Part shown: positions 1 through 14,534 of the stretch, piece by piece | Numbering within the stretch: position 1 is the stretch's first letter | Layout: each line of letters starts with the position of its first letter | IMG/VR virus record: IMGVR_UViG_3300029825_000030 | Location: 1 to 33,479 of that record | Length of the DNA stretch: 33,479 bases | Reading direction: 5' to 3' (one strand) | Source of the DNA: a virus | Made by a program: the position numbers and the translations under genes | Notes under the pieces: model-generated | What the model was told of the DNA's origin: nothing | The model's database searches: none | What the model saw: only the letters and a program-made list of their open reading frames with translations

Positions 1-99
1 ATTCTATATACTATGCTACTAACGGTAAAGGTGAAGTTACTGACGTCGCAGGCGCAACACGACGACCTCCTGAAGACAATGGAGCGCTTCAACGAAGCC
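1..99. repeat. Terminal overlap identical to 33381-33479 (circular contig closure)
   Basis: Direct comparison shows the window begins and ends with the same 99 nt (attctatatactatgctactaacgg...caacgaagcc). Unit length is 33380 bp. Confidence 0.95.
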
Positions 100-1146
100 T
101 GCAACTACATCTCCGATGTCGCATGGTTGAACCAAGCATTCGGGAAGATCGGGCTCCAGAAGATCCTCTACTACGAAGTCCGAGAGAAGTTTGGGCTTTC
201 TGCTCAGATGGTCGTCCGGGCAGTCGGGAAGGTCTCCGAGAGTTATAAGATCGACAAGTCCGTGAAACACACATTCAAGCCTCATGGGGCGGTCGTCTAC
301 GATCAACGAAACCTGACGATCAAAGGTGCAGATCGGGTGTCGATTTTGACGCTGGAAGGGAGAACACTTGTTCCGATTGCATACGGCGAGTATCGAACTC
401 TTGATCAGAACCGGATCAAGGGACAGGCGGATCTCATCTACCTCGACGGGATCTTCTACCTGATGTTGGTCATCGACCTCCCGGAAGAGAAACAGATCGA
501 GAACCTCGATGGAACGCTCGGCGTGGATCTCGGAATTGTCAATCTGGCAACCACAAACGATGGAATCCGGTTTTCCGGTGAGACGTGCGAGGCTGTACGG
601 AAACGGTACTCGGCGCTTAAGGCACGGCTCCAATCTGTTGGAACGTGGGATGCGAAGAAGCATCTGAAACGGATTTCAAGAAAAGAGAGGAGATTCAAGA
701 GAGACACGAACCATTGTATCTCAAAGCAAATCGTAGAAACGGCACAAGGCACGAACCGGGCGATTGCCCTTGAAGACCTGAAAGGGATTCGTTCCGGTAG
801 CACGGTTTCAAAGCCGTTGCGGTCTGTTCTCGGCAAATGGGCGTTCTATGAATTAGCCTCATTCATCCAGTATAAGGCGCAACTCCTCGGTATCCCGGTG
901 ATCTTTGTTGATCCGAAATACACTTCGCAGCAATGCTCGGTGTGTGGATTCATCAGCAAAGAGAACCGGAAGTCGCAATCCGGATTTGTCTGTCTGAAAT
1001 GCGGGCATTCGGAGAACGCCGACATCAATGCCGCAAAAAACATTGCACTCAGGGCTGCCGTCAACCAGCCTATTGCACTCCGCTCCTCAAATCAAGTAGA
1101 GGAGAGATGGAAGGGCAAGCCCACCCCTTTAGGGGTGGGTAGTTGA
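13..1146 (+). CDS. tnpB: TnpB, RNA-guided nuclease of an IS200/IS605-family (IS1341-type OrfB) element
   Basis: 377-aa ORF with an intact split RuvC: D in LGVDLGIVNLATT, E in AIALEDLKGIR, D in NADINAAKNIA. It has a CxxC...CxxC zinc finger (CSVCG...CLKCG). GC is about 50% versus about 62% for the rest of the window. Confidence 0.9.
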   Translation: MLLTVKVKLLTSQAQHDDLLKTMERFNEACNYISDVAWLNQAFGKIGLQKILYYEVREKFGLSAQMVVRAVGKVSESYKIDKSVKHTFKPHGAVVYDQRNLTIKGADRVSILTLEGRTLVPIAYGEYRTLDQNRIKGQADLIYLDGIFYLMLVIDLPEEKQIENLDGTLGVDLGIVNLATTNDGIRFSGETCEAVRKRYSALKARLQSVGTWDAKKHLKRISRKERRFKRDTNHCISKQIVETAQGTNRAIALEDLKGIRSGSTVSKPLRSVLGKWAFYELASFIQYKAQLLGIPVIFVDPKYTSQQCSVCGFISKENRKSQSGFVCLKCGHSENADINAAKNIALRAAVNQPIALRSSNQVEERWKGKPTPLGVGS

Positions 1147-1165
1147 CGGTAAACGTCCCCTCGAC
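960..1165 (+). ncRNA. Candidate omega-RNA (reRNA) scaffold plus guide of TnpB. Extent is approximate.
   Basis: In characterised TnpB systems the omega-RNA overlaps the tnpB 3' end and right end, and reads into flanking DNA as the guide. Here only the RE hairpin is directly visible. Confidence 0.3.
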
Positions 1166-1453
1166 GGCACGCCGGGGCAACCATATCCCGTCGCCGTCCA
1201 GCCACTCGAACGTGCCGTTCGGGTGCTCCATCACCACGAGGAGGTGATACACATCGACCTCCTGGTCGTATTTGTCGACCATCCAGAACCCGAGATCCGC
1301 GTCGGCGGCGTAGGTCGGCTCCAGCAGGTCGGCATGCACGAACTTGTTCTGCGGCAGGCTCACCAGGTAGGCGAGCGCCACGACGAGCAGCACGGCCCCG
1401 ATCACCGCGCCGATGCGCGCCGGAGTCCAGAAAGAGGTTTTAGTATCAGTCAT
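1070..1453 (-). CDS. Small membrane-anchored protein whose C-terminus is read out of the IS right end
   Basis: 127-aa ORF with an N-terminal TM helix (IGAVIGAVLLVVALAYLV). Its last ~25 codons (1070-1146) run antisense through the tnpB 3' end and RE hairpin, so the native C-terminus was probably replaced by the insertion. Confidence 0.6.
   Translation of the reverse strand: MTDTKTSFWTPARIGAVIGAVLLVVALAYLVSLPQNKFVHADLLEPTYAADADLGFWMVDKYDQEVDVYHLLVVMEHPNGTFEWLDGDGIWLPRRAVEGTFTVNYPPLKGWACPSISPLLDLRSGVQ
1120..1139 (+). repeat. IS right-end subterminal hairpin cccacccc-ttta-ggggtggg, lying inside the last codons of tnpB
   Basis: Perfect 8-bp stem with a ttta loop, in context aagCCCACCCCtttaGGGGTGGGtag. 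It encodes the C-terminal PTPLGVG of TnpB. Confidence 0.75.
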
Positions 1454-1473
1454 GCAAGAGAATATGGGGCGGG

Positions 1474-1486
1474 GGATATATAGGGG
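1474..1486 (-). promoter_or_regulatory. TATA-like promoter motif (minus sense CCCCTATATATCC), 21 nt upstream of the ATG at 1453
   Basis: Same motif and same spacing as at 14126-14145. It fills the 33-bp gap between two genes. Confidence 0.45.
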
Positions 1487-2671
1487 TTACCAGCTACCTG
1501 CCTCGACAAACACTTTCGTCGCCGGAGTGATGGTGCTCCGATTCGACATAATTTTGACGTTTGTGATTGTGACGGCGTTAGTTACATTGTCACTCCAGGA
1601 GCCCTGGATTACGAGCGTGTTACCCGCACAAAACCCCCCAGTTGTGTCTACTGATGCCGTAACTGAGATTGCATGCCCGGCGATTGATGCAGTCCCGATC
1701 ACCTCCCCATCCCTCAAAACCTGAACTTTTAACACGGGACTTGGACCGGACACGCCGGGTGGCGCGTTTGTAATCGATGCACGAAGATTTGACGACATTG
1801 GGATACTGCTGTAAGTCGGCGGAACCGTTATCGTGTATAACGTTTTCCATGTGCCGCTGACCGATTCCGATATATTAACGTTCTTCCGCACTGTCGTACC
1901 AGGTACGTCCACGATCTGCGACGAGGCGCCAACATTCCCAGTCAGAGTTTGGATCGATCCAACGTTTGTGATACTCTTCCCGCCCCAGTTTTTATCGGCG
2001 TCAATCGCGATCTGCGAGATCCCAAATCCCCCGATCTTCCCCGCGATCTCCGCGTCCACATACCCCTTCCGCGCCGCGTCCGCGCTCCCGGACGGAGCAG
2101 GGAGCCCCGTGAGCGCCGAGCCCTGCATATCCACCGGGCCAACCACCTCCAGTTGCGAGGACGGCACGTAGACCGGCGCAGCCACACCGCAGAGGCTCGT
2201 GTTCGCCCGCTCGTCGGTGATCTTGGCCGCGACGATACTTGTAGCCCCGGCCTCCACCCGGACCTGCGCGAGCGAGAGCTCCCAGGTCTCCAGGGTCCGA
2301 GTCAGGGCCGGGGCGACCGGCGACGCGGCAGCCGTGCCCTTTTTCACGACCACGTGCACCGTCCGCCCCACGAGATCCGCCCGCACCACCACCCGGTCGA
2401 TCCGGGGGTAGGAGGGATCAGCAGCCTCGACCGTCAGCGTCAGGGCGGCGTCATTGATGAGGTACCTGCCCTGCACCAGCGCCATCCCCGTCCCGACCGA
2501 TACCGACATCGCCGCAGGCACCGTCGGGGATACTGCGAGTTCGTCGCCGTCATTGTGGACGATCCCGTCCCGCATCATCGTTCTGAAAAGCCGTGCAAAC
2601 GCCTCCGACGTATAGACCCTGTCCGGGGCCTCCGGGTCGGCGGCGTCAAACAGTCCGTAACTCTCTGTCAT
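1487..2671 (-). CDS. Tail fibre or baseplate-associated protein (putative receptor-binding)
   Basis: 394 aa and the last large gene of the tail module, with a 4-nt overlap with the upstream gene. The N-terminal pattern (YTSEAFARLF...GMALVQGRYL...PRIDRVVVR...ITDER) resembles conserved N-domains of siphovirus fibre/upper-baseplate proteins, judged from memory. Confidence 0.5.
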   Translation of the reverse strand: MTESYGLFDAADPEAPDRVYTSEAFARLFRTMMRDGIVHNDGDELAVSPTVPAAMSVSVGTGMALVQGRYLINDAALTLTVEAADPSYPRIDRVVVRADLVGRTVHVVVKKGTAAASPVAPALTRTLETWELSLAQVRVEAGATSIVAAKITDERANTSLCGVAAPVYVPSSQLEVVGPVDMQGSALTGLPAPSGSADAARKGYVDAEIAGKIGGFGISQIAIDADKNWGGKSITNVGSIQTLTGNVGASSQIVDVPGTTVRKNVNISESVSGTWKTLYTITVPPTYSSIPMSSNLRASITNAPPGVSGPSPVLKVQVLRDGEVIGTASIAGHAISVTASVDTTGGFCAGNTLVIQGSWSDNVTNAVTITNVKIMSNRSTITPATKVFVEAGSW

Positions 2672-4824
2672 ATTCTCTTCTCCACATTGTCTTTCCGCTG
2701 CGTCCGGAGGAGCGATACCAGGTCAGGCCACTCCGTCCCGAGCGTCAGCGTTAGTTTCTCGCCCTCACGGGCGTACTCTTCGGTGATCGCGACGATCCGG
2801 GCGTCCATCGCGGCGATGTCGGGATACTCGACGTGGACGATATCGCCGAGGTCGAAATCCTCGCCGTAGCGATACGACGCCGTCCGAATGTACTCCACTT
2901 CCAGCGTCGTCGTGTCCCCGTCCTCTGCGAGTTTCTCCGCACCCCGCCGCTCTAGTTCTGCCTCCGTCGCAAGGTCGCGGGCGTCGACGAACCGTTCCCG
3001 GCGGGCGAGTCCGATCAGGCCGTCCCCCGTCCCGACATCGGCCACCGCTCGCGCTGCTGCCTCGCCCTGTCCCGCGACCACCGCGACCGAGGGGGCGAGC
3101 CCGGTGGACTCGTTGTAACCCTTGATCGTGCAGTTGCCGAGCGCTGGACTGAGTTTGACAGAGCCGGAGCGGTCGGCGCCCTGAACCACCTCGAAGTAGA
3201 GCCGCCGATCGTCCCACGACCATCGGCCGCGATACCCGAGCCCGGACACGGCACAGATAGATTCGAGGAGGTCGGCGAGCACGTCGAACCGCGCCTTCTG
3301 TGCCGTGGTGCCCCCGCGCCCGTCGTCGGTGGGGGAGAGCGCGAGGAACGGCACGATCCGCGCGAGGTCGGCGGGTTGGATGGCGTTGACGTCGACGTAG
3401 TGCCGCATCACCGTTTCCGCCGCTCCGGTCTGCTCGTCGTAGCCGGTGCCGGTGCTGACCCCGTGCAGGCACAGCCGGTCGCCGAGGATGCCGATGATCT
3501 CCCGCCCGGCCACTGTCCACTGCTCCGAGGGGCGGCCGGAGGTGTCGACGCTGATCTGCCGAGTCTCGATGAGCCCGAGCCGGTCTTCGCCGTTGCGCCG
3601 GAAATGCACGAGACGGCCGGGGATAAACTCTTTCGCCGCCGGGAGGTAGCGGTTGATCTGTGCTTTCCACGCGCCGGGGCGGCGGTAGCGCCGCGTCCAT
3701 GAGAGGTAGTCGTAGGCGTCGGCGTATCCGGCGAGGGTCAGCGGGGCGCCGGGGTCGCTGTAGACGATCAGCTCGTCCCGGAGCGCGGCGTTCGTGGCGG
3801 CGATCCAGGCAGGGGAGCGGGGGGTGGAGGAGATCGAAACGAGTGCCAGATTACAGTCTAAAAATAACCCGGCGCCTGCTCTGGAGCAGAGATACGTCGG
3901 AACCGCTCCGCTGCTCGATATACCCGTACTGCCCGGCGCAACAGTGCCGACGCCCCCGTCATAGTAGAGGTATGATGCAGCAGCCTGTTGGTCGAGTACC
4001 CCCCAGACATCATGCCACGCCCCGGCATAATCGGGACGGTACTCCGCGCAGATGATATCTCCGACGCCAAAGAACCGTAGGGCCCCATCACCCATACTCG
4101 CCAGCTGATATACCCCTGCGCCCGCCCAAACCCCATGTTCGAGGATCAGGCGCTCGCTCGCGACAGTTCGATCGGTGCGGAATAATGTTTGGACCGAGAA
4201 ACTCTTCCCCCCCATATCAAGAGTGGACGATGCGGGGATAACTCCGTAATCATCCACCCCATCATACGAGTAGCACGCCCCGAGCGGCCCGGTCGTCAGC
4301 GTCGCCCCGTAGATCGTCGCATGGTTGCCGTTCGGCGACGAGTCCAGCAGCAGCCCGCCGGAGGGTTTCATCCACACGCCCGCGTAGCCGTTCGTCCACA
4401 CCTGCTGCGCCGCCGGTTCTCCGGTATCCCCGACATACCCCGTCATCTCGGCGTGCAGCGGATCATAATAGAGATACAGGTGTGTGTCTTCACCGGGATT
4501 GATCCGGGGCACTCGCACCCAGAGATACGCCGTCTGTGTGGCCGCGCTCCACTCCTTGATCTCGACGTAGCACGGCGTCAGCCCGTCGCCTGCGGTGATG
4601 CAGATGCGTTTCCGGTTCGCATCAGAACCGAGCGCCGTAAACACTTTCGAGACGTCGGCGGCGGTCTTGCCGGAGGAGCCGGAGAGTTTGACCATCGCGG
4701 GGAAGTTCTCCAGCACTCCGGTCACGCTCCCGGCGGGGATGGTGAGCAGGATCGGCTCGTTCGCCCATCCCGGCAGCCGGCCGGCCTGTATCTCGTAGAT
4801 GCTGAGAGGATAGGGGTTACTCAC
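2668..4824 (-). CDS. Large tail-tip protein: DUF2341-like N-domain, LamG/concanavalin-like lectin domain and Gp37-like (ReqiPepy6) C-terminal domain
   Basis: 718 aa. DUF2341-like signature: ENFPAMVKL...YVEIKEW...YLWVRVPRI...LYLYYDP. LamG-like signature: DSSPNGNHATIYGA...YDGVDDYGVIP...FSVQTLF. Gp37-like C-terminus: RFVDARD...YGEDFDLGDIVHVEYPD. It sits after Dit. Confidence 0.7.
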   Translation of the reverse strand: MSNPYPLSIYEIQAGRLPGWANEPILLTIPAGSVTGVLENFPAMVKLSGSSGKTAADVSKVFTALGSDANRKRICITAGDGLTPCYVEIKEWSAATQTAYLWVRVPRINPGEDTHLYLYYDPLHAEMTGYVGDTGEPAAQQVWTNGYAGVWMKPSGGLLLDSSPNGNHATIYGATLTTGPLGACYSYDGVDDYGVIPASSTLDMGGKSFSVQTLFRTDRTVASERLILEHGVWAGAGVYQLASMGDGALRFFGVGDIICAEYRPDYAGAWHDVWGVLDQQAAASYLYYDGGVGTVAPGSTGISSSGAVPTYLCSRAGAGLFLDCNLALVSISSTPRSPAWIAATNAALRDELIVYSDPGAPLTLAGYADAYDYLSWTRRYRRPGAWKAQINRYLPAAKEFIPGRLVHFRRNGEDRLGLIETRQISVDTSGRPSEQWTVAGREIIGILGDRLCLHGVSTGTGYDEQTGAAETVMRHYVDVNAIQPADLARIVPFLALSPTDDGRGGTTAQKARFDVLADLLESICAVSGLGYRGRWSWDDRRLYFEVVQGADRSGSVKLSPALGNCTIKGYNESTGLAPSVAVVAGQGEAAARAVADVGTGDGLIGLARRERFVDARDLATEAELERRGAEKLAEDGDTTTLEVEYIRTASYRYGEDFDLGDIVHVEYPDIAAMDARIVAITEEYAREGEKLTLTLGTEWPDLVSLLRTQRKDNVEKRI

Positions 4825-5066
4825 GTTATCTCATCCTCCGGGATCAGTTCGCAGGGTGCGGGCGGCGTGTCATCATGGTGACAGACGTGCAGCCGGGCGA
4901 CGGACTCTGCCGCCGTCCACCCGGCCCCGGCACGGAGCGCGGCGATCCGGTCGAGGATTTCCGGCCCGGTCTCGTCACCGATCTCCACCCGGATCATCTC
5001 CTGCGGTTCGCCGTTTTCGATCTGCTCTTCGGTCTGCTCCTTGATAATCTCGATGAATTTCCGCAT
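4821..5066 (-). CDS. Hypothetical acidic protein (81 aa) in the tail module
   Basis: ORF with overlapping stop/start coupling to its neighbours and codon usage like the flanking genes. Confidence 0.55.
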   Translation of the reverse strand: MRKFIEIIKEQTEEQIENGEPQEMIRVEIGDETGPEILDRIAALRAGAGWTAAESVARLHVCHHDDTPPAPCELIPEDEIT

Positions 5067-5069
5067 AGT

Positions 5070-5933
5070 TCACACTCCTGTATATCGTGGCGAATACTGG
5101 ATTAGCACGCTCGCGTCGCCGCCGGAATCGGCATAGGTCAGGACATTCGGCCCCGGTTGCATCTGCCAGAACGTCGAGCCGGGCTGCACAATCCCCATGA
5201 GACTTGCTCCCGTCCAATGGCGGCAGGAGGCCGATCCGAACGTGGTCCGGATCTCGACCCATTCTCCTGGCGCGAGGTCGAGCGTCAGCCCGATCTGCTC
5301 GCCAGTAGTCGCGTTGGCGATCACAGGGTTGAGCGCCGGGCCGGTGACGCGGATCGTGACCGGGCTCTCGACGTCGCCGGGGTTGGTGATCGTCACCGTC
5401 GGCGAGACGAGGGCGAAGTGTGTCGGGAACGCGACCGGGAACACCACCCCGCCGGTGAGCCCCTGCAAGTGTTGCTCAAGCGCGTCCTCAAACCAGCACG
5501 GATCGGAGGCGGTCAGGTCCACGGTGACGGTCTGCCAGGTGGGGCCGGCACTCTGTCGCCCCTGTGGGAACGCGGGCGAGGCACTCCCGACGACGCAGCG
5601 GAGGGAGAACGAGTGCTCGCCCTGTATCCAGACGAGCCGCCCCTCGCCGGCGGCCGGGGAGAACGCCTTGGTGATCGCCCGGCGCCGAGCGTAAAGGTCT
5701 TCGATATCCTGCGCCCGGATCATGAACGTCAGCGAGAGCGAGCGGGGGACGAGCAGTGCCGCGAGGAATGTCGCGCCATGCTGATAAGGGGCCTGCACGG
5801 TCTGCACGTCGCACCCGCCGCCGCCGAAGCCGGAGGAAGTCAGGTAAACGTAGACCGGATCGGGGATCTCCTGATCCGGCTCGCGGATGTCGAGGATCGC
5901 GCCGTTAACTGCGTGCCACTGGAGGTGCATCAT
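5070..5933 (-). CDS. Distal tail protein (Dit-like siphovirus tail component)
   Basis: 287 aa, immediately downstream of the tape measure with a 4-nt overlap. The call rests on conserved synteny and size. Confidence 0.6.
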   Translation of the reverse strand: MMHLQWHAVNGAILDIREPDQEIPDPVYVYLTSSGFGGGGCDVQTVQAPYQHGATFLAALLVPRSLSLTFMIRAQDIEDLYARRRAITKAFSPAAGEGRLVWIQGEHSFSLRCVVGSASPAFPQGRQSAGPTWQTVTVDLTASDPCWFEDALEQHLQGLTGGVVFPVAFPTHFALVSPTVTITNPGDVESPVTIRVTGPALNPVIANATTGEQIGLTLDLAPGEWVEIRTTFGSASCRHWTGASLMGIVQPGSTFWQMQPGPNVLTYADSGGDASVLIQYSPRYTGV

Positions 5934-8380
5934 AGCGATCCCTCCAGCGCCGCGTCACGGAGCCCGCGCTTTGTGGCGTCGGCGACCTCTGTGGCGGACT
6001 GTGTCTGGGTGTAGATGTTCTGGTTCAGGACCACTTGCATCCCCCCGACCGCGCCTGCTGCCGGTAGGTTCATCCCCCCGCTGGCTGACGCGGACTCGGT
6101 GGGCTCTGCTGCCCCCCCTCCGCCCCCGGCGGCCACACTTGCCGATGCTGCCGATGCTGCCCCGAATGCGGGCGAGGCGTAGGACGGCGTCTGGATGTCG
6201 AGTTTGGGGATCTGCGGCAGCCCGCCGATCGGGTTGCCGTTCTCGTCGTACTCGACATGATATGTGCGGGCGATGGCCGGGTTGTCATTGACGTACTTGA
6301 CGTATTCCGCCCAGTTCGCCGACTTGATATCCAGCGCCTCGTTCTCGATCTCACTCATCAGGTTCTCGTGAGCGATCTGCGCCTCCTCCCGCTTCTCCAG
6401 CGCAACGTCGAGTTTCTCCTGCTCGTCTTCGAGCATCTGGCTGATCTCGTCAAGCCGCGCCTGAGCGCTCGACACGCTCTCGCCGTTCAGCGCCGTCTCG
6501 ATCTCGACCCGCTCCGCCTGTGCGTCGGATGCCTCCTGCAGAGCGTCCTGATACCGATCCTGCGCGTCGGCTACATCGAGCACTGCCTCCCGCTCCCGGA
6601 GGTAAAGATCTACAAGTTTGTCCTTCGCGGCCGCGTCTCCCTGCCTGGCGAGCGCCTCCGTCTCCTTGATCTCATCCTTGAGCGCGGCGAGATCGCGTTC
6701 GGCCCGGATCTTGCGGATATCCGCCCGCTCGATGTCGCGGTCGGCGTCCTTGATCTTGTCTTCGATCCCAAGCGCCTTGTCGATCGTCTCCTTGAGCTTG
6801 TTGTACTCCTTCTGCAGGTTCGTGACCGTCCGCTGGTGCCCGGTGACCGCTTTCGACGCCTGCTCATATGCCGTCTTCGCCCCATCCGCGAGCCGGCGGG
6901 TCTGGAGTTCAACGTCCCGGGCTGCCTGCGCCGCCCGGTTCTCGGCGAGTTTCAGGTCGAGCGCGGAGAGCGCCGCGTCCTTCTCCGCCTGCGTCAGGTT
7001 GCCGATCGCAACGGTGCCGTCCTCAATCGCTTCGGTCGTGTCTTCAAACTCGCGGGTGAGGTCGCCGGTCGCGAGTTTGTGCCAGCCAGTCGCTTCGGTT
7101 GCCCGCCGGGTCGCGAGCGTACCCCGGTCGGTAACGACCGTCTGCGCTTTGAGCGCCTCGATGTTGGCGAGGATCTCCTGCTCTTCCTTCTTGAGCACGT
7201 CGATCTCGTCCTCGATCGTCTCGGTGCTCTTCTTGGTGAGGTCGGCGGTTTCCCGGAGTGCTTCGTTGTACTCGTTCTGTGCCGTCGTCGCGTCGTTCGT
7301 GGACGCGATCAGCGGCAGGAGCACGGCGCCGAGGGTCGTCACCCCGATGATCGCCAGCCCGAGCGGGTTCGCCATGATCGCGGCGGTGAATCCCTTCGTG
7401 GCGATGGTGGCGGCGATCGTCGATGCCTGGTAGGTGCGGTAGAGGGAGATCGTCGATCCTAAGGAGCCGGCGAGGGTGCCGACCGCCCAGATGGCCGGGC
7501 CGGTCGCGGCGGCGAAGAGCCCGGTGGTGACGATCACTTTTTTCGTGCCCTCGTCGAACCCGGAGATCCATCCGATCCCGTCGCGCACCACCGAAATGAG
7601 ATCCCGGGCCATTGGCATGAGGATCTGCCCGAACTCCTCACCGAGTTCTTTGAGGTCGGCGGTGAGCGCTTTCGTCTGGTTGGCGAGCCCGTCCGCCTCC
7701 CGGGCTGCCGCCCCCTGCACGTCGGTCGTGGCCCGCATGATGAGGTTCAGGCGAGCCTGGGCCTTCTCCGCGTCGGTGGCCGCCTCGGTCCCGCCAGCGA
7801 TCCCCATATTGAGGAGCTCCTGCTCGACCGCAGCCTCGCTCAGAACTACACCGAATCGTCGCATCGGCATGTAGGAGCCAATTATGGCGGCCCGCAGGGC
7901 GACGAACGCTTCCTCGTCGGCGACGTTGTGAAAGGCGCCCATATCGACGGAGAGTTGGGTGATCGTCGTCGAGAGTTCTGCACCCTCCTCGCCCACGAGC
8001 CCCATGGCCTTGACGATGCTCATCATCGTGGCCGTCATCTCTTGGAGGTCGGTCCGGGCGCGACCCTGGGCAGTGCCGTATGCCTCCACCCACTCGTTCA
8101 TGTCGTCGGTCATCTCGCCGAAGACCTGCTCGAACTTCGCCTGAGTCTCACTTGCGTCGCTGGCGAGTTTTACCATACCGACACCGGCGAGGGCCAGCGG
8201 GGCGGTGACTTTGAGGGTTAGGTCGGAGCCGATGCTCGTGAGACGCGACCCGATGGTCTTGAGGTCACCCTCCAGCCCCTCGGTGCGTTTGACCGCCTCG
8301 TCGTATGCCCGCGTCAGCCCGGCGATGTCGCCTACGATCTCGACGACCAGTTTCCCTGCGCTTGTTTCACCGAACATCAT
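5930..8380 (-). CDS. Tail tape measure protein
   Basis: 816 aa with a long coiled-coil, a TM-like hydrophobic central segment and a TP901-type core (MGAFHNVADEEAFVALRAAIIGS...RFGVV). It lies between the chaperones and Dit. Confidence 0.9.
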   Translation of the reverse strand: MMFGETSAGKLVVEIVGDIAGLTRAYDEAVKRTEGLEGDLKTIGSRLTSIGSDLTLKVTAPLALAGVGMVKLASDASETQAKFEQVFGEMTDDMNEWVEAYGTAQGRARTDLQEMTATMMSIVKAMGLVGEEGAELSTTITQLSVDMGAFHNVADEEAFVALRAAIIGSYMPMRRFGVVLSEAAVEQELLNMGIAGGTEAATDAEKAQARLNLIMRATTDVQGAAAREADGLANQTKALTADLKELGEEFGQILMPMARDLISVVRDGIGWISGFDEGTKKVIVTTGLFAAATGPAIWAVGTLAGSLGSTISLYRTYQASTIAATIATKGFTAAIMANPLGLAIIGVTTLGAVLLPLIASTNDATTAQNEYNEALRETADLTKKSTETIEDEIDVLKKEEQEILANIEALKAQTVVTDRGTLATRRATEATGWHKLATGDLTREFEDTTEAIEDGTVAIGNLTQAEKDAALSALDLKLAENRAAQAARDVELQTRRLADGAKTAYEQASKAVTGHQRTVTNLQKEYNKLKETIDKALGIEDKIKDADRDIERADIRKIRAERDLAALKDEIKETEALARQGDAAAKDKLVDLYLREREAVLDVADAQDRYQDALQEASDAQAERVEIETALNGESVSSAQARLDEISQMLEDEQEKLDVALEKREEAQIAHENLMSEIENEALDIKSANWAEYVKYVNDNPAIARTYHVEYDENGNPIGGLPQIPKLDIQTPSYASPAFGAASAASASVAAGGGGGAAEPTESASASGGMNLPAAGAVGGMQVVLNQNIYTQTQSATEVADATKRGLRDAALEGSL

Positions 8381-8981
8381 CTATCACCTCGTTTTATCCG
8401 GGTGCCGAAGGCCTGTTCGATCGCCGCCGCGTCCGGTGCGTCGGCGGGCGCCTGGGCAGCGCTGTGTGGCGTTGCCGGGGCGGGATCGAGCCGATACGTC
8501 ATTTCCGTCGCGTAGGCGCCATACATCAGGAGTTGCGCCCACGATAGGCGATCGAGGCAGTAGTCCGGCGTCCACCCGTAGATCCGGCAGAGGCGGGCGA
8601 CGATCCGGCCTGCCTCGATTACGGGTTTTTTACCTCCCCCTCCTTGTCACCCTTGTCCCCGCCACCCCACCGGCGGAACGCCTGCGCGATAACGACCTGT
8701 GTCAGCCCTGCGAGCTGCGGCCGGGTGAGGTTGGCCATCAGCCACTCGTAGGTAATCTTGGGGTTGGATATGTGGCAGATATCTGCGATCGCCATGACCA
8801 TCTCGCCGTCAGGGATTTTGTCAAACCCGCCGTGTTCCTGCGTCGCCTGCGTCAGGGTCAGCGTGCCGCGAGCAGGAACGATCGTGAGATCGATCTCCTC
8901 AATCTCGCTGCCGTTGCCGATGCGGACGATCACTGGTTTCGGCGAAAGGGTGGAGAGGTCGATGATCTCGACCATCGTCAC
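8377..8981 (-). CDS. Tail assembly chaperone G-T fusion made by a programmed -1 frameshift at A_AAA_AAC (8625-8631)
   Basis: I translated the -1 frame by hand from the heptamer. It stays open for 83 codons (KKPVIEAGRIVARLCRIYGWTPDYCLDRLSWAQLLMYGAYATEM...IKRGDR*). It stops at TGA 8377-8379, which overlaps the tape-measure ATG. This frame has no start codon of its own. Confidence 0.6.
8619..8981 (-). CDS. Tail assembly chaperone (gpG-like)
   Basis: 120 aa, located between the major tail protein and the tape measure. It ends ...GEVKNP* with a slippery A_AAA_AAC heptamer just before the stop. Confidence 0.75.
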   Translation of the reverse strand: MTMVEIIDLSTLSPKPVIVRIGNGSEIEEIDLTIVPARGTLTLTQATQEHGGFDKIPDGEMVMAIADICHISNPKITYEWLMANLTRPQLAGLTQVVIAQAFRRWGGGDKGDKEGEVKNP

Positions 8982-9787
8982 ACCGCCTGCTCGTCGTAGA
9001 TCTGGATGACGTTCTCCCCGTCGTCAAGCGTCGGATCGGGCCGCGCTGTCAGAGTGATCGGGATGCCAGCAGGTTCTCCGCCCGCGTCCGCCGTAAACGT
9101 GTGCTCGAAGTTGGACGACAGTTTGACCTTGAATAGCCGATACCGGTACTTCTTGCCGGCGGCGTTGGTGTTCGTCATCTGCACGGCGATGTACTTCGGG
9201 GTGGACCCCTTGCCGCCGAGTTTGATGGTCTTCGACGCGATCGGGGTGTAGCCGTAGGTGATCGTGAGCACCTGGTCGTCCGTGGTGACCGTATCCGAGT
9301 CGAGCACGACAATCCCGGTGACGCCCTCGTCGTCGGTGATGACGTGATAGTCAGTCCCGGCAACGAGCGCCGGGTTCGTTGACCCGGCGACCGATGCGAT
9401 CGTCGCGCTCGGCTGGTCGGTCACGGGGATGAACGTGGAGTAGTCCCACGCACCAGACGCGACGTTGAGGGTCTGTCCGCTGACGGGGGTGGTGGTTGTG
9501 GCCGTGACGGTCCCGAGCCCGAGTTTTTCGAGCGTCGCGAGCGTCCACTCGTGGAGTGTTGCTGTAACCTCGGCGCCGGTGATCTGGTCGGACACATCCA
9601 CTTCGGGCGCGTTGTCCGGCTGGATGGTGATCGATTCGCGGTTCACGGTGAGTTTCGCGCCCTTCAGGATGCCAACGTCGGTCATGCTGGCAAACGCCCC
9701 CGGGTGGTCCTCGACCTCAAGTTTGCAGGAGCCGAGCCGGATCGCGGCCGGGTTCTGCACGGATGTCTGGAAAGTCATTATCTTCAC
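8978..9787 (-). CDS. Major tail (tube) protein
   Basis: 269 aa, positioned between the tail terminator and the chaperones. It is T/V-rich and beta-rich, typical of siphovirus tube proteins. Confidence 0.7.
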   Translation of the reverse strand: MKIMTFQTSVQNPAAIRLGSCKLEVEDHPGAFASMTDVGILKGAKLTVNRESITIQPDNAPEVDVSDQITGAEVTATLHEWTLATLEKLGLGTVTATTTTPVSGQTLNVASGAWDYSTFIPVTDQPSATIASVAGSTNPALVAGTDYHVITDDEGVTGIVVLDSDTVTTDDQVLTITYGYTPIASKTIKLGGKGSTPKYIAVQMTNTNAAGKKYRYRLFKVKLSSNFEHTFTADAGGEPAGIPITLTARPDPTLDDGENVIQIYDEQAV

Positions 9788-10155
9788 TCTCTGTAGGTGA
9801 CTCTGAAGTCACAGGGGATGTGATACAGGCGGGTTTCGGCCTCGTAGAGTTCCGGTGCGTTGAGGAACTGGATACTCTCGATCGCTGTGCCGTCCACGAT
9901 CCCACGGTAGTCGTCGAGCGCTGCAATGACGGCCTCGGCGAGTTGCCGGACCGTCGCGAAGTCGTCCGCCCAACAGGATATCTGCATCCGGGGAGGGCGG
10001 ATCGTCTTGAAGATCCGGGCATCGGAGACTGTCAGATACTTGATATATGGCGTTGTGATCGGGCCGTCGACGTGGATCGGGTATACCCGGGTCCCGACGA
10101 GGGCGGAGACCCCTGCGTCGTTCACCAGGATCTGCCGTATGGCCTTCTGAATCAT
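9784..10155 (-). CDS. Tail terminator or tail completion protein (DUF3168-like)
   Basis: 123 aa with the right synteny. The N-terminus MIQKAIRQILVNDAGVSALVGTRVYP is typical of this family, judged from memory. Confidence 0.55.
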   Translation of the reverse strand: MIQKAIRQILVNDAGVSALVGTRVYPIHVDGPITTPYIKYLTVSDARIFKTIRPPRMQISCWADDFATVRQLAEAVIAALDDYRGIVDGTAIESIQFLNAPELYEAETRLYHIPCDFRVTYRE

Positions 10156-10616
10156 ACCCCTTCCCTCCGGATCGCATCCTGAATCCCGGCGGCGATGATT
10201 CGCCGGATCTTGTCGGCATTCTCGTCGAGCGCCGGGCGGAGGAATGGTTGCGCATCCATGCCGGGTTTTGGGCCGTAGATGTAGTCGTCCGGATGCTCAA
10301 CCCCGGAGGCGTCGCCCCTGCGACCGGTTCCGTACTCGACAAACGGCGCGTATTCGACATTCGTCCCGACGACGCCGGAAACCCGATTCCCCTCCACCAC
10401 CGGCTCTTCGGCGGTGATAGAATTCCGCAGGCGCCCGCCGGTGTATCCGGGGCGGGACACTCCGACCGGGCACCTGCGCTTCGCCTCCCTCTCGACCTTG
10501 AGTTCGCCCCGCCAGACGCCTTCGGCGAGCACGCCCGGGGCCCGGTCGCCGAGGTTCTGGAGCCTCCGGATCAGATCGTCCCCCCCGGCAACGTTGAGGC
10601 CAGGCATCAGAACCAC
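10152..10616 (-). CDS. HK97 gp10-family neck/tail completion protein
   Basis: 154 aa with the motif VGTNVEYAPFVEYGTGRRG...AQPFLRPAL, characteristic of the HK97 gp10 family. Confidence 0.7.
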   Translation of the reverse strand: MVLMPGLNVAGGDDLIRRLQNLGDRAPGVLAEGVWRGELKVEREAKRRCPVGVSRPGYTGGRLRNSITAEEPVVEGNRVSGVVGTNVEYAPFVEYGTGRRGDASGVEHPDDYIYGPKPGMDAQPFLRPALDENADKIRRIIAAGIQDAIRREGV

Positions 10617-10840
10617 CCCAAGAGTTTCAGGGCGCCGGCGACGACCCCGCCGGCAACGGCTCCGGCCCCGCTACTGGTTGCAGCGAGACGGCCGAGGCCC
10701 TGGTTGCACTGCGCCTCCAGGATCCGGAGCCGGGCCTCGTGGTCGTTGGCAGCCTCGGAGACCGCCGACACCTCGCCGTAGATCAGGATCAGTAGTTCCC
10801 GGTCGGTCAGGGTGCCGAGGGTGTTCTCTGGCAAGCTCAC
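10607..10840 (-). CDS. Small protein with a C-terminal TM segment (77 aa, GTG start)
   Basis: In-frame GTG at 10838-10840 overlaps the upstream stop (GTGA). The C-terminus is glycine/alanine-rich and hydrophobic (AGAVAGGVVAGALKLLGWF). The longer ORF in the track overlaps the upstream gene. Confidence 0.5.
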   Translation of the reverse strand: MSLPENTLGTLTDRELLILIYGEVSAVSEAANDHEARLRILEAQCNQGLGRLAATSSGAGAVAGGVVAGALKLLGWF

Positions 10841-11187
10841 GTCGCCGCCTCCAGTTCCGCTTTCAGGTGAGAGATGCTCGTCGGCCCGTAGATTGCCTTC
10901 ACCGCCTTCACCGTGTAGGTCTTGCCGAACCCGAGGGGGCCGTCGGAGACGGTGTCTCGCTCGGCGATCGCCGTCTCTGCGGGAAGGAGGACTCCCGGCA
11001 GTATCTGGAAGACCTGCCCGCTGGCGAGGTCCAGACGCCGGGTCTGGGTGCCCGGGTTCGTGAACCGGCACCTGACGCCCGTCTGCGTGGTCGTGGTGGT
11101 CTTGGGCACGCCGAAGTCGTCGACCTCCCCCGTGTCTGCCTGGTGCGTGATGGTGCAGGTGTGGATCAAAAGAGCGCCCGGGATCAT
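10837..11187 (-). CDS. Head closure / head-tail joining protein (SPP1 gp16-like)
   Basis: 116 aa; call based on synteny and size, between the gp6-like connector and gp10-like genes. Confidence 0.6.
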   Translation of the reverse strand: MIPGALLIHTCTITHQADTGEVDDFGVPKTTTTTQTGVRCRFTNPGTQTRRLDLASGQVFQILPGVLLPAETAIAERDTVSDGPLGFGKTYTVKAVKAIYGPTSISHLKAELEAAT

Positions 11188-11555
11188 CCGTTCACCCTCC
11201 TGACAGAAACCCGCGATCCGCGGCGCCGGGCGAGGTATCGTCCGACAGCCTCCCGGGCAAGGGACTCGTGGTAGTCGATCTCGTTCTGAGTGTTGTTCCC
11301 GATCGTGAGGTCTCCACCGAGGTTGAGCGAGTTCGTGCGCTCGTTCATGAGCCGGCCCCGGTCGATGATCGTGGCGATCGTGTAGTGGACGGATGCCGTC
11401 TCCAGGTCGAGATCCCCGGCGGTGCCGGTTAGTGTGGCCTCGGCGAGGGCGGCATCGATCCGCCGGTCGGACTTCTCAATGAGGGCGGTGATCGTCTCGG
11501 TGGCGAGCATCGTCCCGGATGCCAGGACTACATCGGCGGGGGCACAGTAGGTCAA
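11184..11555 (-). CDS. Head-tail connector (gp6-like) protein
   Basis: 123 aa. The N-terminus YCAPADVVLASG...TITALIEKSDRRIDA resembles gp6-like connectors, and it lies downstream of the capsid gene. Confidence 0.55.
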   Translation of the reverse strand: MTYCAPADVVLASGTMLATETITALIEKSDRRIDAALAEATLTGTAGDLDLETASVHYTIATIIDRGRLMNERTNSLNLGGDLTIGNNTQNEIDYHESLAREAVGRYLARRRGSRVSVRRVNG

Positions 11556-11809
11556 TGCCCCACCTCCGGCAGGTCCCGGTGATCGAACGGCACCGGGCGG
11601 GTGTTGACATCGACCGGCGAGGTCTCAGTGATCAGGTTCTCATCGAGCTGGTAGCCGAGCCCGTCGAAGGGGCCGGTGCCGTAAACCTCGTAGTACTCGC
11701 ACTCTTCTGCGGTGAACTGCCGCATGTCGTAGAGGCACCGCTGCCGCTCACCGTCCGGGTCGTTCCATTCCCGGGTCAGGTATTTCCCGCTGTTCTGCTT
11801 GGAGAGCAT
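11552..11809 (-). CDS. Hypothetical protein (85 aa)
   Basis: ORF coupled to the downstream connector gene by a 4-nt overlap. Confidence 0.5.
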   Translation of the reverse strand: MLSKQNSGKYLTREWNDPDGERQRCLYDMRQFTAEECEYYEVYGTGPFDGLGYQLDENLITETSPVDVNTRPVPFDHRDLPEVGH

Positions 11810-11831
11810 GGGGGAGAGATCCTCCTCACGC

Positions 11832-12827
11832 TCAGTACTGCACGCGGTATGTGGCGTTCGCGATGAAACGGGCCGCGTCGAACCGGGCAGTGACCTTCAT
11901 CCCGACGAGGTCGCGGATCGGGTCACTGTACTGCTCGATGGTGACGTCCTCGCGGATACCAATCCCCCCGGCGGCGTTGCGGTCGACGACGAGCGCCCCG
12001 ATGTAGTCGTTCGTGCCATATCCCCAGGTGTAGGTGGCGGAATCGTCGGTGACGCCGCAGATGTTGGAGTTGCAGCCGAAGAGCTGCGGGAGGCGGCCGG
12101 TCCTGAGCACGGAGTCCGCAGACGAGCCGTTCAGCCCCGAGACCCGGTCGATCACCGCCCCGTAGGCGGTCGGGAAGTAGACGATATCGGTCGGGGTGTG
12201 CCCGAGCCCGATCATCCCCCCGATAGCGGATGTGATACCGCTGACGAACGCCGCCCCGGTCCCGGTTGCGGCACAGTCGGCGGCGGTGCCCGACCCTTCC
12301 AGGATGACGGAGAGGGCACGACGGTTGAGGGCGTTCTCGATCTTGTAGCCAGCCTTACGGATCTCCTGGGCGATGACGTCGAACTTCGCGTCGGCGACCA
12401 TCTCCCGGGTGATGAGCGGCCGCTCGCCGTACTTGACGGCGGTGAGCGTGGCCGGGTCGTATTCCTGCGTGGCGATCGGGATCTCCGCACCTTCGGCGAC
12501 CTGCGGCGCGTAGCTGCCCGTCTCGCCGAGAGGTATGGTCATGACCTGCGTCGGCATCCGGAAGACCGGGAGGACGTTCCGCATGCACTTCGCGGGCTCC
12601 GACCCTTCGACCACCGTAGCATAGGCCTCGGTCGGGATCAGGTTGGTCGCAGCCAGCCCCTCGGCGAGGAGGAGTTCGCGAGCGCTCTCGACCTTACCGT
12701 CGTCGGTCATGTAGGCGAGTTTCCGCGGCACGCGGACCTCAACGGCCCGCTTCAGTTCCCCGGGCCCCATGTGGGCCATTTCAAGGTAGTCCGCCAGGCG
12801 GCGGGTATGAACGAAGGATTCAGTCAT
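11832..12827 (-). CDS. Major capsid protein, HK97 fold
   Basis: Start refined to the ATG at 12825-12827 (MTESFVH...), which clears the upstream gene. It is 331 aa and follows the protease/scaffold and decoration genes. Sequence pattern is typical of the family (PLITREMVADA...IENALNR...). Confidence 0.85.
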   Translation of the reverse strand: MTESFVHTRRLADYLEMAHMGPGELKRAVEVRVPRKLAYMTDDGKVESARELLLAEGLAATNLIPTEAYATVVEGSEPAKCMRNVLPVFRMPTQVMTIPLGETGSYAPQVAEGAEIPIATQEYDPATLTAVKYGERPLITREMVADAKFDVIAQEIRKAGYKIENALNRRALSVILEGSGTAADCAATGTGAAFVSGITSAIGGMIGLGHTPTDIVYFPTAYGAVIDRVSGLNGSSADSVLRTGRLPQLFGCNSNICGVTDDSATYTWGYGTNDYIGALVVDRNAAGGIGIREDVTIEQYSDPIRDLVGMKVTARFDAARFIANATYRVQY

Positions 12828-12832
12828 GGGTA

Positions 12833-13264
12833 TCACGCTCCTGCCTTGGGCACATGCTGGATCTGCACCTCGATGTAACCGGTCGAGTTCGCGGCGACAT
12901 CCTCCTGCGCGACGCCAACCCACCAGGCGGCGGCGGTGTCGGTCCCGGTGATGATGCACCCGGCGGTGTCGTCGACCATGACGCCATGTCCGGCGTCGAT
13001 CGCGGCTCCGGCCCCCTCACAGGCGAGCAGGACCGAGCCGTTCCCGGCCACAGCTACGAGGGCATCCTTGGCTGCAGAGTACAGGGCGATGCCGGCGGGG
13101 GCCTCAGTGGTCCCGGCGACGCAAGGGTGTACGGTGTCGGCGACGCCGGTGCCGTGGAAGGCCACGACCTGCCCGGCGAGGATTGCCGCGCCGGCCTTGT
13201 AGGTCTTCACGCTGCCGAGATGCTTCGGCTTCGGGTCAAATGCTGCGGGTGTAGTGTCTGCCAT
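12833..13264 (-). CDS. Head decoration / DUF2190-like protein
   Basis: 143 aa, Gly/Ala-rich beta protein (AGQVVAFHGTG...GIALYSAAKDALVAVAGNG...) immediately upstream of the capsid gene. Confidence 0.6.
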   Translation of the reverse strand: MADTTPAAFDPKPKHLGSVKTYKAGAAILAGQVVAFHGTGVADTVHPCVAGTTEAPAGIALYSAAKDALVAVAGNGSVLLACEGAGAAIDAGHGVMVDDTAGCIITGTDTAAAWWVGVAQEDVAANSTGYIEVQIQHVPKAGA

Positions 13265-13265
13265 T

Positions 13266-14105: not shown

Positions 14106-14125
14106 GTACTACTATGCGCCCCCCC

Positions 14126-14145
14126 GGATATATGGGAATTTATCT
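14126..14145 (-). promoter_or_regulatory. TATA-like promoter motif (minus sense AGATAAATTCCCATATATCC), 21 nt upstream of the ATG at 14105
   Basis: The 17-bp core tatatgggaatttatct (14129-14145) repeats exactly at 14347-14363. The ggatatat element and its spacing are shared with 1474-1486. Confidence 0.5.
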
Positions 14146-14177
14146 GTACCGGGTCCGGGCAGAGACTAAAAAGAGGA

Positions 14178-14324
14178 TCAGGGAGTCGTGGCGGGTTTCT
14201 GGATGAGCATGAACTCTTTCCCGTCGGAGATCGGGATCACCTGGATCTCCACCGTCGTTGCAACGGCCTCGATCGCAGCCTCGATCGCGGCGGCCGGGTG
14301 GTAAGAGACGGCATAATTCGTCAT
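14178..14324 (-). CDS. Hypothetical 48-aa protein, below the ORF-track size cut-off
   Basis: Hand translation: MTNYAVSYHPAAAIEAAIEAVATTVEIQVIPISDGKEFMLIQKPATTP*. It is preceded at ~22 nt by the second copy of the promoter motif. Confidence 0.4.
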   Translation of the reverse strand: MTNYAVSYHPAAAIEAAIEAVATTVEIQVIPISDGKEFMLIQKPATTP

Positions 14325-14345
14325 GCTCTAAGGTAGCCCCGAGAA

Positions 14346-14363
14346 GTATATGGGAATTTATCT
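14346..14363 (-). promoter_or_regulatory. Second copy of the TATA-like promoter motif (minus sense AGATAAATTCCCATATAC)
   Basis: Exact 17-bp repeat of 14129-14145, lying 22 nt upstream of the ATG at 14324. Confidence 0.5.
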
Positions 14364-14534
14364 ACAGGATGCGGACCGCTGCAGGCGCTGGAGGTGCTTC
14401 CGCACCCCGTCCTTAGTGATCGACACCCCGTAGAGCACACTGAGGTTATACGCGATCTCGGCCGGGAACAGGCGGCCCTTGTTCGCGAGGATGTATGCCT
14501 GCATCTCCGGGGTGATCCGCTTGCCAGAGGTCAC
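14358..14534 (-). CDS. Small HTH-like DNA-binding protein (58 aa, GTG start)
   Basis: GTG at 14532-14534 overlaps the upstream stop (GTGA). Sequence: VTSGKRITPEMQAYILANKGRLFPAEIAYNLSVLYGVSITKDGVRKHLQRL. The longer N-terminal extension in the track looks non-coding (Arg/Ala-rich). Confidence 0.45.
   Translation of the reverse strand: MTSGKRITPEMQAYILANKGRLFPAEIAYNLSVLYGVSITKDGVRKHLQRLQRSASCR

What the first reader, a model, noticed from the sequence alone, without database searches (positions are those of the whole stretch)
1..1150. Apparently active TnpB-only IS element resident in a viral genome, spanning the contig junction
tnpB has all three RuvC catalytic residues and the zinc finger. 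No tnpA is present. The element ends in matching hairpins: cccacgac-ttta-gtcgtggg at 33317-33336 and cccacccc-ttta-ggggtggg at 1120-1139. Its GC is about 50% against about 62% for the virus, which suggests recent acquisition. Because the omega-RNA guide of a TnpB is templated by DNA flanking the right end, this copy would be programmed against the uninterrupted allele of the same viral locus. In a mixed infection it could cut IS-free relatives, producing homing drive or inter-viral competition.
Basis: partly seen in the sequence, partly recalled or inferred. Interest (0 to 1): 0.6.

Follow-up and report, generated by a model that had tools for sequence, protein, structure and literature searches.

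The report
TnpB-only insertion sequence in methanogen virus
A 1.2-kb jumping gene that carries only an RNA-guided nuclease (TnpB) has landed precisely in the tail end of a small gene of a Methanoculleus virus, and its guide RNA should match the many related viruses that lack it; the mechanism is known, but this is a clean natural example in an archaeal virus.

Summary
The window is a circularly assembled 33,380-bp genome of a Blf4-like siphovirus of the methanogen Methanoculleus.

- **The element.** It carries one 1,229-bp IS200/IS605-family element of the tnpB-only (IS1341) type, at window 33299-33380 plus 1-1147.
- **The insertion site.** Twelve or more related viral contigs lack the element and read ...GATCAC|GGTAAACG... 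So it inserted exactly 3' of TCAC, without target duplication, in the last codons of a conserved 114-aa membrane-protein gene (the Blf4 gp35 homologue).
- **TnpB.** The 377-aa protein is full length, has D172/E254/D337 and a four-Cys zinc finger, and is under strong purifying selection (dN/dS 0.05-0.10).
- **Guide RNA scaffold.** The last ~120 nt fold into a conserved omega-RNA-like structure with compensatory changes.
- **Target.** The predicted guide (1148-1167), next to TCAC, occurs intact in 24 metagenome contigs and 5 viral contigs.
- **Transposase.** The virus has no tnpA. Methanoculleus genomes carry a tnpA element with the same end hairpin.

Expression, cutting and homing are untested, and the occupied allele was found only in this record. 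The GC argument for recent acquisition is weak. TnpB homing is published, tnpB in phages is known, and this scan has met similar cases on other DNA. I file it as a new member of a known kind.

The parts
33295..33298 (+). Target/TAM tetranucleotide TCAC, immediately 5' of the element's left end
   Evidence: TCAC precedes the LE in every copy whose LE flank was read. IS-free relatives read GATCAC|GGTAAACG.
33299..33380 (+). Left end (LE) of the IS, first 82 nt. 33381-33479 is the assembly duplicate of 1-99.
   Evidence: Homology to other copies starts here.
33317..33336 (+). LE subterminal hairpin CCCACGAC-TTTA-GTCGTGGG, its foot 18 nt from the cleavage site
   Evidence: Read. Conserved in the aligned LE regions, with small variations in some copies. 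The same stem flanks tnpA elements of Methanoculleus.
33360..33365 (+). TTTATA, a putative archaeal TATA box about 33 nt upstream of the tnpB ATG (inference only)
   Evidence: Read. Not tested.
13..1146 (+). tnpB, 377 aa, intact RuvC D172/E254/D337 and CxxC...CxxC zinc finger
   Evidence: dN/dS 0.05-0.10 against four other copies.
1025..1147 (+). Omega-RNA (reRNA)-like scaffold overlapping the tnpB 3' end. Stems: 1052-1057/1066-1071, 1075-1082/1108-1116, 1083-1088/1099-1104, and the terminal hairpin. The 5' limit is uncertain.
   Evidence: RNAalifold on 11 copies gives 37 pairs, 9 with compensatory changes. 96% of cells are paired against 33-43% when partners are slid; 0 of 500 shuffles reach the covariation score. 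There is no Rfam family match.
1120..1139 (+). RE subterminal hairpin CCCACCCC-TTTA-GGGGTGGG, 8 nt from the right end
   Evidence: The stem covaries (CCC/GGG, GGC/GCC, GAC/GTC) among copies.
1144..1147 (+). Right-end terminal TGAC. The tnpB stop codon TGA (1144-1146) lies inside it.
   Evidence: The copies whose right end was read end in GTTGAC, followed by unrelated flanks.
1148..1167 (+). Predicted 20-nt guide/target, GGTAAACGTCCCCTCGACGG, which is viral DNA
   Evidence: It is the first flank base after the RE. Preceded by TCAC, it occurs uninterrupted in 5 IMG/VR contigs and 24 metagenome contigs.
1070..1453 (-). Viral small membrane-protein gene (Blf4 gp35 homologue). Its last 11 native residues are replaced by 24 residues read from the IS right end.
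   Evidence: Translations of the window, of the reconstructed empty site, of Blf4 gp35 and of five relatives.
33260..33298 (-). Displaced native 3' end of that gene (V-IGSFDARKANL-stop), now separated from it by the IS

Best explanation
This is a genuine, structurally intact IS200/IS605-family insertion sequence of the tnpB-only (IS1341-like) type, 1,229 bp long. It sits in a complete Blf4-like siphovirus of Methanoculleus.

It most likely entered the viral DNA during an infection. A Y1 (HUH) TnpA encoded by a host IS would have cut and pasted it as single-stranded DNA 3' of TCAC (inferred). The insertion rewrote the last 11 codons of a conserved viral membrane-protein gene (shown).

The element encodes a full-length TnpB with an intact nuclease centre, and a conserved guide-RNA scaffold that ends at the right end (shown). 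A transcript running 16-20 nt past the right end would therefore carry the guide GGTAAACGTCCCCTCGACGG (inferred).

By the published TnpB mechanism, this ribonucleoprotein should cut DNA in which that sequence follows TCAC. That is the uninterrupted allele, either after excision or in a co-infecting IS-free relative. It should spare its own copy, where the same sequence follows TGAC (inferred). Repair from an IS-bearing genome would then copy the element in: retention or homing (inferred, untested).
For: - **Virus identity.** TerL, portal, capsid, tape measure, Dit and D5 primase are present. The tail region is 79% identical at nt level to Methanoculleus virus Blf4. CheckV completeness is 100.
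- **Exact insertion.** The IS-free contig L017/L031 aligns for 788 bp at 93.7% straight across the junction. Twelve relatives read GATCAC|GGTAAACG, with no duplication.
- **Canonical ends.** The full-length copies L003, L036 and L037 span 1,229-1,233 bp from the G after TCAC to GTTGAC, in unrelated flanks.
- **TnpB intact and constrained.**
- **Covarying scaffold.**
- **Natural targets.** TCAC plus 20/20 occurs in 29 contigs. An empty-site contig identical over 1146-1300 lies in the same run (X2) as a contig identical to IS bases 1-969.
- **Transposase in trans.** 12 of 48 Methanoculleus species genomes have a Y1 tnpA match. One intact tnpA-tnpB element (L050/L076) and one internally deleted copy (L043) carry the same CCCACGAC...GTCGTGGG LE hairpin.
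- **TCAC is a proven TAM** of AmaTnpB, and TnpB can process its own mRNA into omega-RNA (PMC10278001).
- **TnpB homing is published** (10.1101/2023.03.14.532601, PMC10690162; PMC13565253).
Against: - There is no evidence of transcription of the guide region. All four runs laid are contig sets, and the RNA-library contigs that touch the IS are diverged copies or copies with other flanks.
- No cleavage data exist, and the TAM is inferred only from insertion sites.
- The IS-virus junction was found in no other viral or metagenome contig, while IS-free perfect targets are common. So the element has not visibly spread.
- The insertion removes a conserved C-terminus (IGSFDxRKAxL), so it may be mildly harmful.
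- The nearest known copies differ by dS of about 0.4, so the donor is unknown.
- The tnpA elements found insert at TTAC and end differently at the RE. Their ability to move this element is inferred, not shown.
Confidence: 0.72

Rival explanations
1. Passive passenger. The IS is a one-off, neutral or slightly harmful insertion caught in one viral lineage. TnpB and its RNA may be made but have no effect on viral competition or IS spread, and the lineage will lose out or lose the IS.
For: - The occupied allele is seen only in this record, against 29 perfect empty sites.
- The insertion replaces a conserved C-terminus.
- Blf4-type viruses are described as lytic (PMC8540584), so the time for homing is short.
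- IS copies of this family also sit in ordinary chromosomal and other mobile contexts.
Against: - The nuclease centre, the scaffold and the target relation are all intact.
- Published work shows that such TnpBs do cut empty sites and bias inheritance.
- Rarity could equally mean that the insertion is recent.
Confidence: 0.22
2. Assembly artefact. The IS is a host repeat wrongly joined to viral flanks, and the 'circular' contig closes only because both ends run into the repeat.
For: - The 99-nt overlap that closes the contig lies entirely within the IS.
- Several IS copies with other flanks coexist in the same kinds of samples.
Against: - Both flank-IS junctions lie inside the contig, at the exact same dinucleotide step of the viral sequence, in the right orientation, and 3' of the family's TCAC.
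- Relatives show the two flanks to be directly adjacent.
- A chimera would not reproduce a precise, duplication-free IS200/IS605 insertion.
Confidence: 0.03
3. Domesticated TnpB. The virus uses the protein for its own ends, for example as a guide-RNA-directed repressor or an anti-host weapon, rather than as part of a transposon.
For: Nuclease-dead TnpB relatives recruited as regulators are known (my own knowledge, not checked here).
Against: - The catalytic residues are intact.
- The transposon ends are canonical.
- The element is absent from all relatives.
- The guide's only perfect match in the window is its own flank at 1148; other sites differ at 4 of 16 positions.
- The nearest copies are ordinary IS copies.
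Confidence: 0.03

Closest known systems
IS200/IS605 family, tnpB-only IS1341-type elements (paradigms IS608 of Helicobacter pylori and ISDra2 of Deinococcus radiodurans)
   Same: - Insertion 3' of a fixed tetranucleotide, without target duplication.
- Subterminal hairpins instead of inverted repeats. The LE hairpin foot is 18 nt from the cleavage site and the RE hairpin is 8 nt from it, close to the IS608 layout as I recall it (own knowledge).
- tnpB runs to the right end.
   Different: - There is no tnpA in the element or in the virus, so a host tnpA must act in trans.
- The target is TCAC, not TTAC or TTGAT.
- The resident replicon is an archaeal virus.
TnpB-omega RNA nucleases with proven activity: ISDra2 TnpB (PDB 8BF8, 8EXA, 8H1J; PMC8612924) and AmaTnpB (TAM TCAC; PMC10278001)
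   Same: - Same domain order, the same D-E-D and zinc-finger motifs.
- A guide scaffold overlapping the gene's 3' end, with the guide taken from the flank.
- The inferred TAM TCAC equals that of AmaTnpB.
   Different: - Sequence similarity to ISDra2 TnpB is low (E 1e-8). The best structural relatives by sequence are Cas12f-type and TnpB-like proteins.
- The scaffold matches no Rfam family.
- Activity is untested.
TnpB-driven transposon homing (Meers et al., 10.1101/2023.03.14.532601; 'non-restorative homing' in PMC13565253)
   Same: The guide addresses the transposon-free allele. Repair from a transposon-bearing copy would spread or retain the element. The review lists co-infecting phages as a theoretical target.
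   Different: Here the alleles are natural viral genomes: one occupied and at least 29 perfect empty sites. Nothing has been measured.
tnpB copies in other phages, e.g. cyanophage A-1(L) (10.64898/2026.02.14.705889), and free-standing homing endonucleases of T-even phages
   Same: A host-derived tnpB element present in one phage and absent from its close relatives. A possible role in competition between co-infecting viruses.
   Different: - The host is a methanogenic archaeon.
- The copy is not identical to any known host copy.
- The exact empty site, the TAM and the guide are defined here.

Membership tests
IS200/IS605 family (IS1341-type, tnpB only) | Insertion 3' of a specific short target, without target-site duplication | tested here: met
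   IS-free relatives read GATCAC|GGTAAACG. The element is exactly 33299..1147.
IS200/IS605 family (IS1341-type, tnpB only) | Subterminal hairpins at LE and RE, no terminal inverted repeats | tested here: met
   Hairpins at 33317-33336 and 1120-1139. They are conserved or covarying in other copies.
IS200/IS605 family (IS1341-type, tnpB only) | Multiple copies with the same ends in unrelated flanks (mobility of the family) | tested here: met
   Loose ends with other right flanks in runs X1 and X17.
IS200/IS605 family (IS1341-type, tnpB only) | A Y1 HUH TnpA able to move it, here necessarily in trans | tested here: inconclusive
   None in the virus. Methanoculleus genomes hold tnpA elements with the same LE hairpin stem, but with target TTAC and a different RE tail. 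Cross-mobilisation is not testable with these tools.
TnpB RNA-guided endonuclease (NCBIfam NF040570 guided_TnpB) | Full-length match above the curated cut-off | tested here: met
   190 bits against a cut-off of 100, profile positions 11-388 of 389.
TnpB RNA-guided endonuclease (NCBIfam NF040570 guided_TnpB) | RuvC D-E-D triad and CxxC...CxxC zinc finger | tested here: met
   D172, E254, D337; C308, C311, C327, C330, aligned to the same motifs in solved Cas12f/TnpB chains. That these are the catalytic positions rests on my own knowledge of the family.
TnpB RNA-guided endonuclease (NCBIfam NF040570 guided_TnpB) | Structured omega-RNA/reRNA overlapping the 3' end of tnpB and ending at the RE | tested here: met
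   A conserved fold with 9 compensatory pairs. That an RNA is actually made was not testable.
TnpB RNA-guided endonuclease (NCBIfam NF040570 guided_TnpB) | TAM-dependent, guide-dependent DNA cleavage | not testable with these tools
   Needs biochemistry or an interference assay.
Homing (gene-drive-like) element between co-infecting viruses | The target allele exists in related viruses and is absent from self | tested here: met
   TCAC + 20/20 in 5 viral and 24 metagenome contigs. In the window the same 20 nt follows TGAC.
Homing (gene-drive-like) element between co-infecting viruses | Super-Mendelian spread, or depletion of the empty allele | tested here: not met
   No other contig carries the occupied junction. 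This is a census of assemblies, not a test of the process.

The most novel reading that the evidence does not exclude
The element works as a natural RNA-guided gene drive, or competition weapon, among Blf4-like viruses of methanogens. In mixed infections its TnpB-guide complex cuts the roughly 40% of sampled relatives that carry TCAC plus a perfect match. It either converts them to IS carriers or removes them. Alleles with TGAC (Blf4, L028), or with changes in the four TAM-proximal bases, would then be resistant variants.
Probability: 0.2. Interest if true: 0.7.

Novelty: new member of a known kind. Interest (0 to 1): 0.4.

Why it matters
It gives a fully defined natural test case for an idea so far shown on plasmids and only proposed for viruses: that a transposase-less TnpB element can spread, or fight, between co-infecting viruses by cutting the empty allele.

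All the pieces are in hand:
- the exact ends of the element;
- the inferred TAM;
- the 20-nt guide;
- many natural target alleles, and predicted resistant alleles;
- a cultivable relative with its host (Blf4 and Methanoculleus bourgensis E02.3).

It also documents IS traffic from a methanogen into its virus, and it warns that the 'terminal repeat' of this record lies inside a repeat element. By itself it adds no new mechanism.

Tried and rejected
- **Rfam.** No family at gathering score over the whole window. At a relaxed threshold only weak minus-strand chance hits appear, e.g. HEARO at 18 bits against a cut-off of 83.
- **RNA evidence.** The four runs laid are all contig sets. They cannot show RNA ends or levels, and the RNA-library contigs on the IS are diverged copies or have other flanks. 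Nothing can be said about expression.
- **Bridging contigs.** No listed contig in those runs bridges 1147/1148. Short contigs break at repeats, so this is not evidence against the junction.
- **Occupied junction elsewhere.** Exact-match scans found none in viral contigs or metagenome contigs. The window's own record may be left out of these scans.
- **Antisense ORF in tnpB** (37-663, minus strand, 208 aa). It is open for 212 codons here and in L038, but only 109-111 in L003, L036 and L039. I rejected it as a gene.
- **M. receptaculi tnpA copies** (L042, L044, L046). My pattern search found no hairpin of this type next to them.
- **GC as a clock.** Rejected, because host-resident copies share most of the element's sequence (86% nt identity).
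- **dN/dS against the Methanocalculus copy L005.** This failed because synonymous sites are saturated.

Full report
**What the window is.** The 33,479-nt window carries a 99-nt exact overlap between its two ends (1-99 = 33381-33479). The tools report it as an IMG/VR virus record with direct terminal repeats and a CheckV completeness of 100. Its genes are those of a siphovirus: large terminase, portal, Mu-F-like head protein, HK97-type capsid, tape measure, Dit, tail proteins and a D5-type primase-helicase. The tail region is 79% identical in DNA to Methanoculleus virus Blf4/L4768. Blf4 is a lytic siphovirus of Methanoculleus bourgensis, 37 kb and 63% GC (PMC8540584). The unique genome is therefore 33,380 bp, and the host is almost certainly a Methanoculleus.

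**Checking the observation.** The ORF at 13-1146(+) encodes a 377-aa protein.
- It scores 190 bits on NCBIfam guided_TnpB (cut-off 100) over nearly the whole profile, and it matches Pfam OrfB_IS605 and Cas12f1-like_TNB.
- Alignments to solved Cas12f/TnpB chains place D172 (GVDLGI), E254 (ALEDL) and D337 (NADINAAKNIA), and Cys308/311/327/330, on the conserved RuvC and zinc-finger motifs.
- No Y1 or serine-recombinase tnpA is present in the record.
- The two hairpins are at the stated coordinates.
- GC is 0.50-0.51 across 1-1000 against about 0.64 elsewhere.

All points of the observation hold.

**Exact limits of the element.** Relatives of the protein were found in Methanoculleus, Methanocalculus, Methanospirillum and Methanoregulaceae genomes and in viral contigs. 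DNA alignments with them begin at a conserved TCACG and end at a conserved GTTGAC; beyond those points the flanks are unrelated.

Searching with the two viral flanking genes gave 14 related viral contigs. A reconstruction of left flank plus right flank aligns for 788 bp at 93.7% straight across the junction in one of them (L017/L031), and 12 contigs read ...CCGATCAC|GGTAAACGTCC.... My first reconstruction had one G too many. The base after GTTGAC varies among copies, so that G belongs to the left end of the element.

The IS is therefore window 33299-33380 plus 1-1147, 1,229 bp. It inserted 3' of TCAC with no target duplication. The LE hairpin foot lies 18 nt from the left cleavage site and the RE hairpin lies 8 nt from the right one. 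This is the signature of IS200/IS605 elements (family knowledge). Lacking tnpA, it belongs to the IS1341-type subgroup.

**Could the assembly be wrong?** The overlap that closes the contig lies inside the IS, which calls for caution. I nevertheless consider a chimera very unlikely. Both flank-IS junctions lie in the contig interior. They fall at one and the same step of the viral sequence. They have the orientation and the TCAC expected of this family, and the two flanks are adjacent in relatives.

**Effect on the virus.** The minus-strand gene starting at 1453 is the homologue of Blf4 gp35 (114 aa, N-terminal membrane helix). In relatives it ends ...EGTFTV-IGSFDARKANL. In the window, the 11 residues after V are replaced by 24 residues read from the antisense of the IS right end, and the native 3' end lies stranded at 33260-33298. 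The lost tail is conserved among relatives, so the insertion may carry a cost.

**Is the element functional?**
- Against four other copies, tnpB shows dN/dS of 0.05-0.10.
- dS is lower in the last 57 codons (0.34-0.39 against 0.42-0.67), as expected if an RNA structure overlaps them.
- Eleven copies of the last 160-180 nt give a consensus fold of 37 pairs, 9 of them with compensatory changes.
- 96% of cells are paired, against 33-43% when partners are slid. None of 500 shuffles reaches the covariation score. Five of the six pairs of the stem at 1083-1088/1099-1104 change on both sides.
- The terminal hairpin also covaries, but it would be conserved for TnpA recognition as well. The inner stems lie in the coding tail and are best explained by an RNA.
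- A possible closing helix (1025-1029 with 1142-1146) does not covary, so the 5' limit of the scaffold is uncertain.
- No Rfam family matches.

**Guide and target.** The scaffold ends at 1147, inside the tnpB stop codon, so the guide should be 1148-1167. In the empty allele this sequence directly follows TCAC. TCAC is the proven TAM of AmaTnpB (PMC10278001).
- Among 13 related viral contigs, five carry TCAC plus a 20/20 match. The others have 1-4 mismatches, mostly in the four TAM-proximal bases. L028 has TGAC with two mismatches, and Blf4 itself has TGAC with one mismatch.
- Exact scans found TCAC + 20/20 in 5 IMG/VR contigs and 24 metagenome contigs.
- In the window, the 20-mer follows the element's own TGAC. 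If TGAC is not a permissive TAM, the element is immune to itself, and Blf4 and L028 would be resistant. This is inference.
- In run X2, a contig identical to the window over 1146-1300 continues leftwards into the empty-site sequence, while another contig is identical to IS bases 1-969. So the IS and a near-identical IS-free virus occur in one sample. It is not shown that the IS in X2 sits in the virus.

**Where the transposase may come from.** Twelve of 48 Methanoculleus species genomes have a match to Y1 tnpA.
- One (L050/L076) holds an intact tnpA (with the C-terminal KQYIEEQ motif) followed by a different tnpB. Its left end reads TTTAC|GATCTAATAGCAGAAAG-CCCACGAC-GTTA-GTCGTGGG, close to the left end here.
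- The MAG that also holds the 86%-identical IS copy L003 carries an internally deleted derivative of the same element (L043).
- The four bases 5' of each hairpin (GAAG at LE, CAAG at RE) change together with the second base of the cleavage site (TCAC, TGAC), and AAAG goes with TTAC in the tnpA element. This is the pattern I recall for IS608, where those bases pair with the cleavage site. I offer it as a lead only, from my own knowledge and untested.
- Mobilisation in trans is thus plausible but not shown.

**What is not shown.** There is no evidence for expression, RNA ends, cutting or homing.
- The occupied junction occurs in no other viral or metagenome contig.
- The closest known copies (95% aa; L036, L038) differ by dS of about 0.4, so the donor is unknown.
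- The better argument for a recent event is the existence of near-identical IS-free alleles.

**Comparison with what is known.**
- TnpB as an RNA-guided nuclease, and its role in cutting the vacant site to retain or spread the transposon, are established (PMC8612924; 10.1101/2023.03.14.532601; PMC10690162).
- A 2026 review lists 'non-restorative homing' into co-infecting phages or plasmids as theoretically possible, and cites plasmid data (PMC13565253).
- tnpB copies in phages are described, for example in cyanophage A-1(L).
- This scan has already reported several phage cases with the same logic on other DNA (e1-3279653, e1-5368169, e1-5511336 and others; I did not check them).
- What is particular here: the archaeal, methanogen-virus setting; the canonical TnpA-made ends with a candidate host transposase; the completely defined empty site; and the census of natural target and putatively resistant alleles.

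**Verdict.** This is a new member of a known kind, of moderate interest mainly as a ready-made test system.

Noticed in passing
window 1-99 and 33381-33479: The 99-nt terminal overlap, on which the record's 'direct terminal repeat' class rests, lies entirely inside the multi-copy IS. Circular closure is supported independently by synteny with IS-free relatives, not by the repeat itself.
   Followed up: partly
L036:5723-7848: The closest sister copy of the IS (95% aa, 90% nt) sits between an ArdC-N ORF and an MPTase-PolyVal ORF, so it probably splits an ArdC-like anti-restriction gene. The contig is full of small ORFs, a DNA methylase and a PAPS reductase (virus- or plasmid-like). This would be a second hit of the family on a mobile element.
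   Followed up: partly
L036 versus L037: Two contigs carry the same tnpB protein and share the same left flank, but have different right flanks after GTTGAC. This could be a rearrangement at the IS or an assembly join at the repeat.
   Followed up: no
L043:1369-1915 and L076:170-1760: Methanoculleus genomes hold a tnpA-tnpB IS605-type element with target TTAC and the same LE hairpin. L043 is an internally deleted derivative in which the tnpA 3' end is fused to the tnpB 3' end, losing the catalytic tyrosine region.
   Followed up: partly
L006:1270-1322, L007:4110-4160, L008:1757-1807: In the Methanospirillum and Methanoregulaceae copies the right end carries a second, tandem hairpin (about 29 extra nt) before GTTGAC.
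   Followed up: no
window 1148-1151 and 33295-33298, and the same site in L019-L028 and L049 (Blf4): Differences between viral relatives in the 20-nt target cluster in the four TAM-proximal bases (one codon, T/D/N). Two relatives, including Blf4, have TGAC in place of TCAC. This could be ordinary codon variation or escape from TnpB.
   Followed up: partly
window 37-663 (-): A 208-aa ORF antisense to tnpB is open here and in L038 but broken in L003, L036 and L039. It is probably not a gene.
   Followed up: yes
window 889-1146 (last 57 codons of tnpB): Synonymous divergence is lower in the last 57 codons of tnpB than in the rest (0.34-0.39 against 0.42-0.67). This fits an overlapping RNA structure.
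   Followed up: partly
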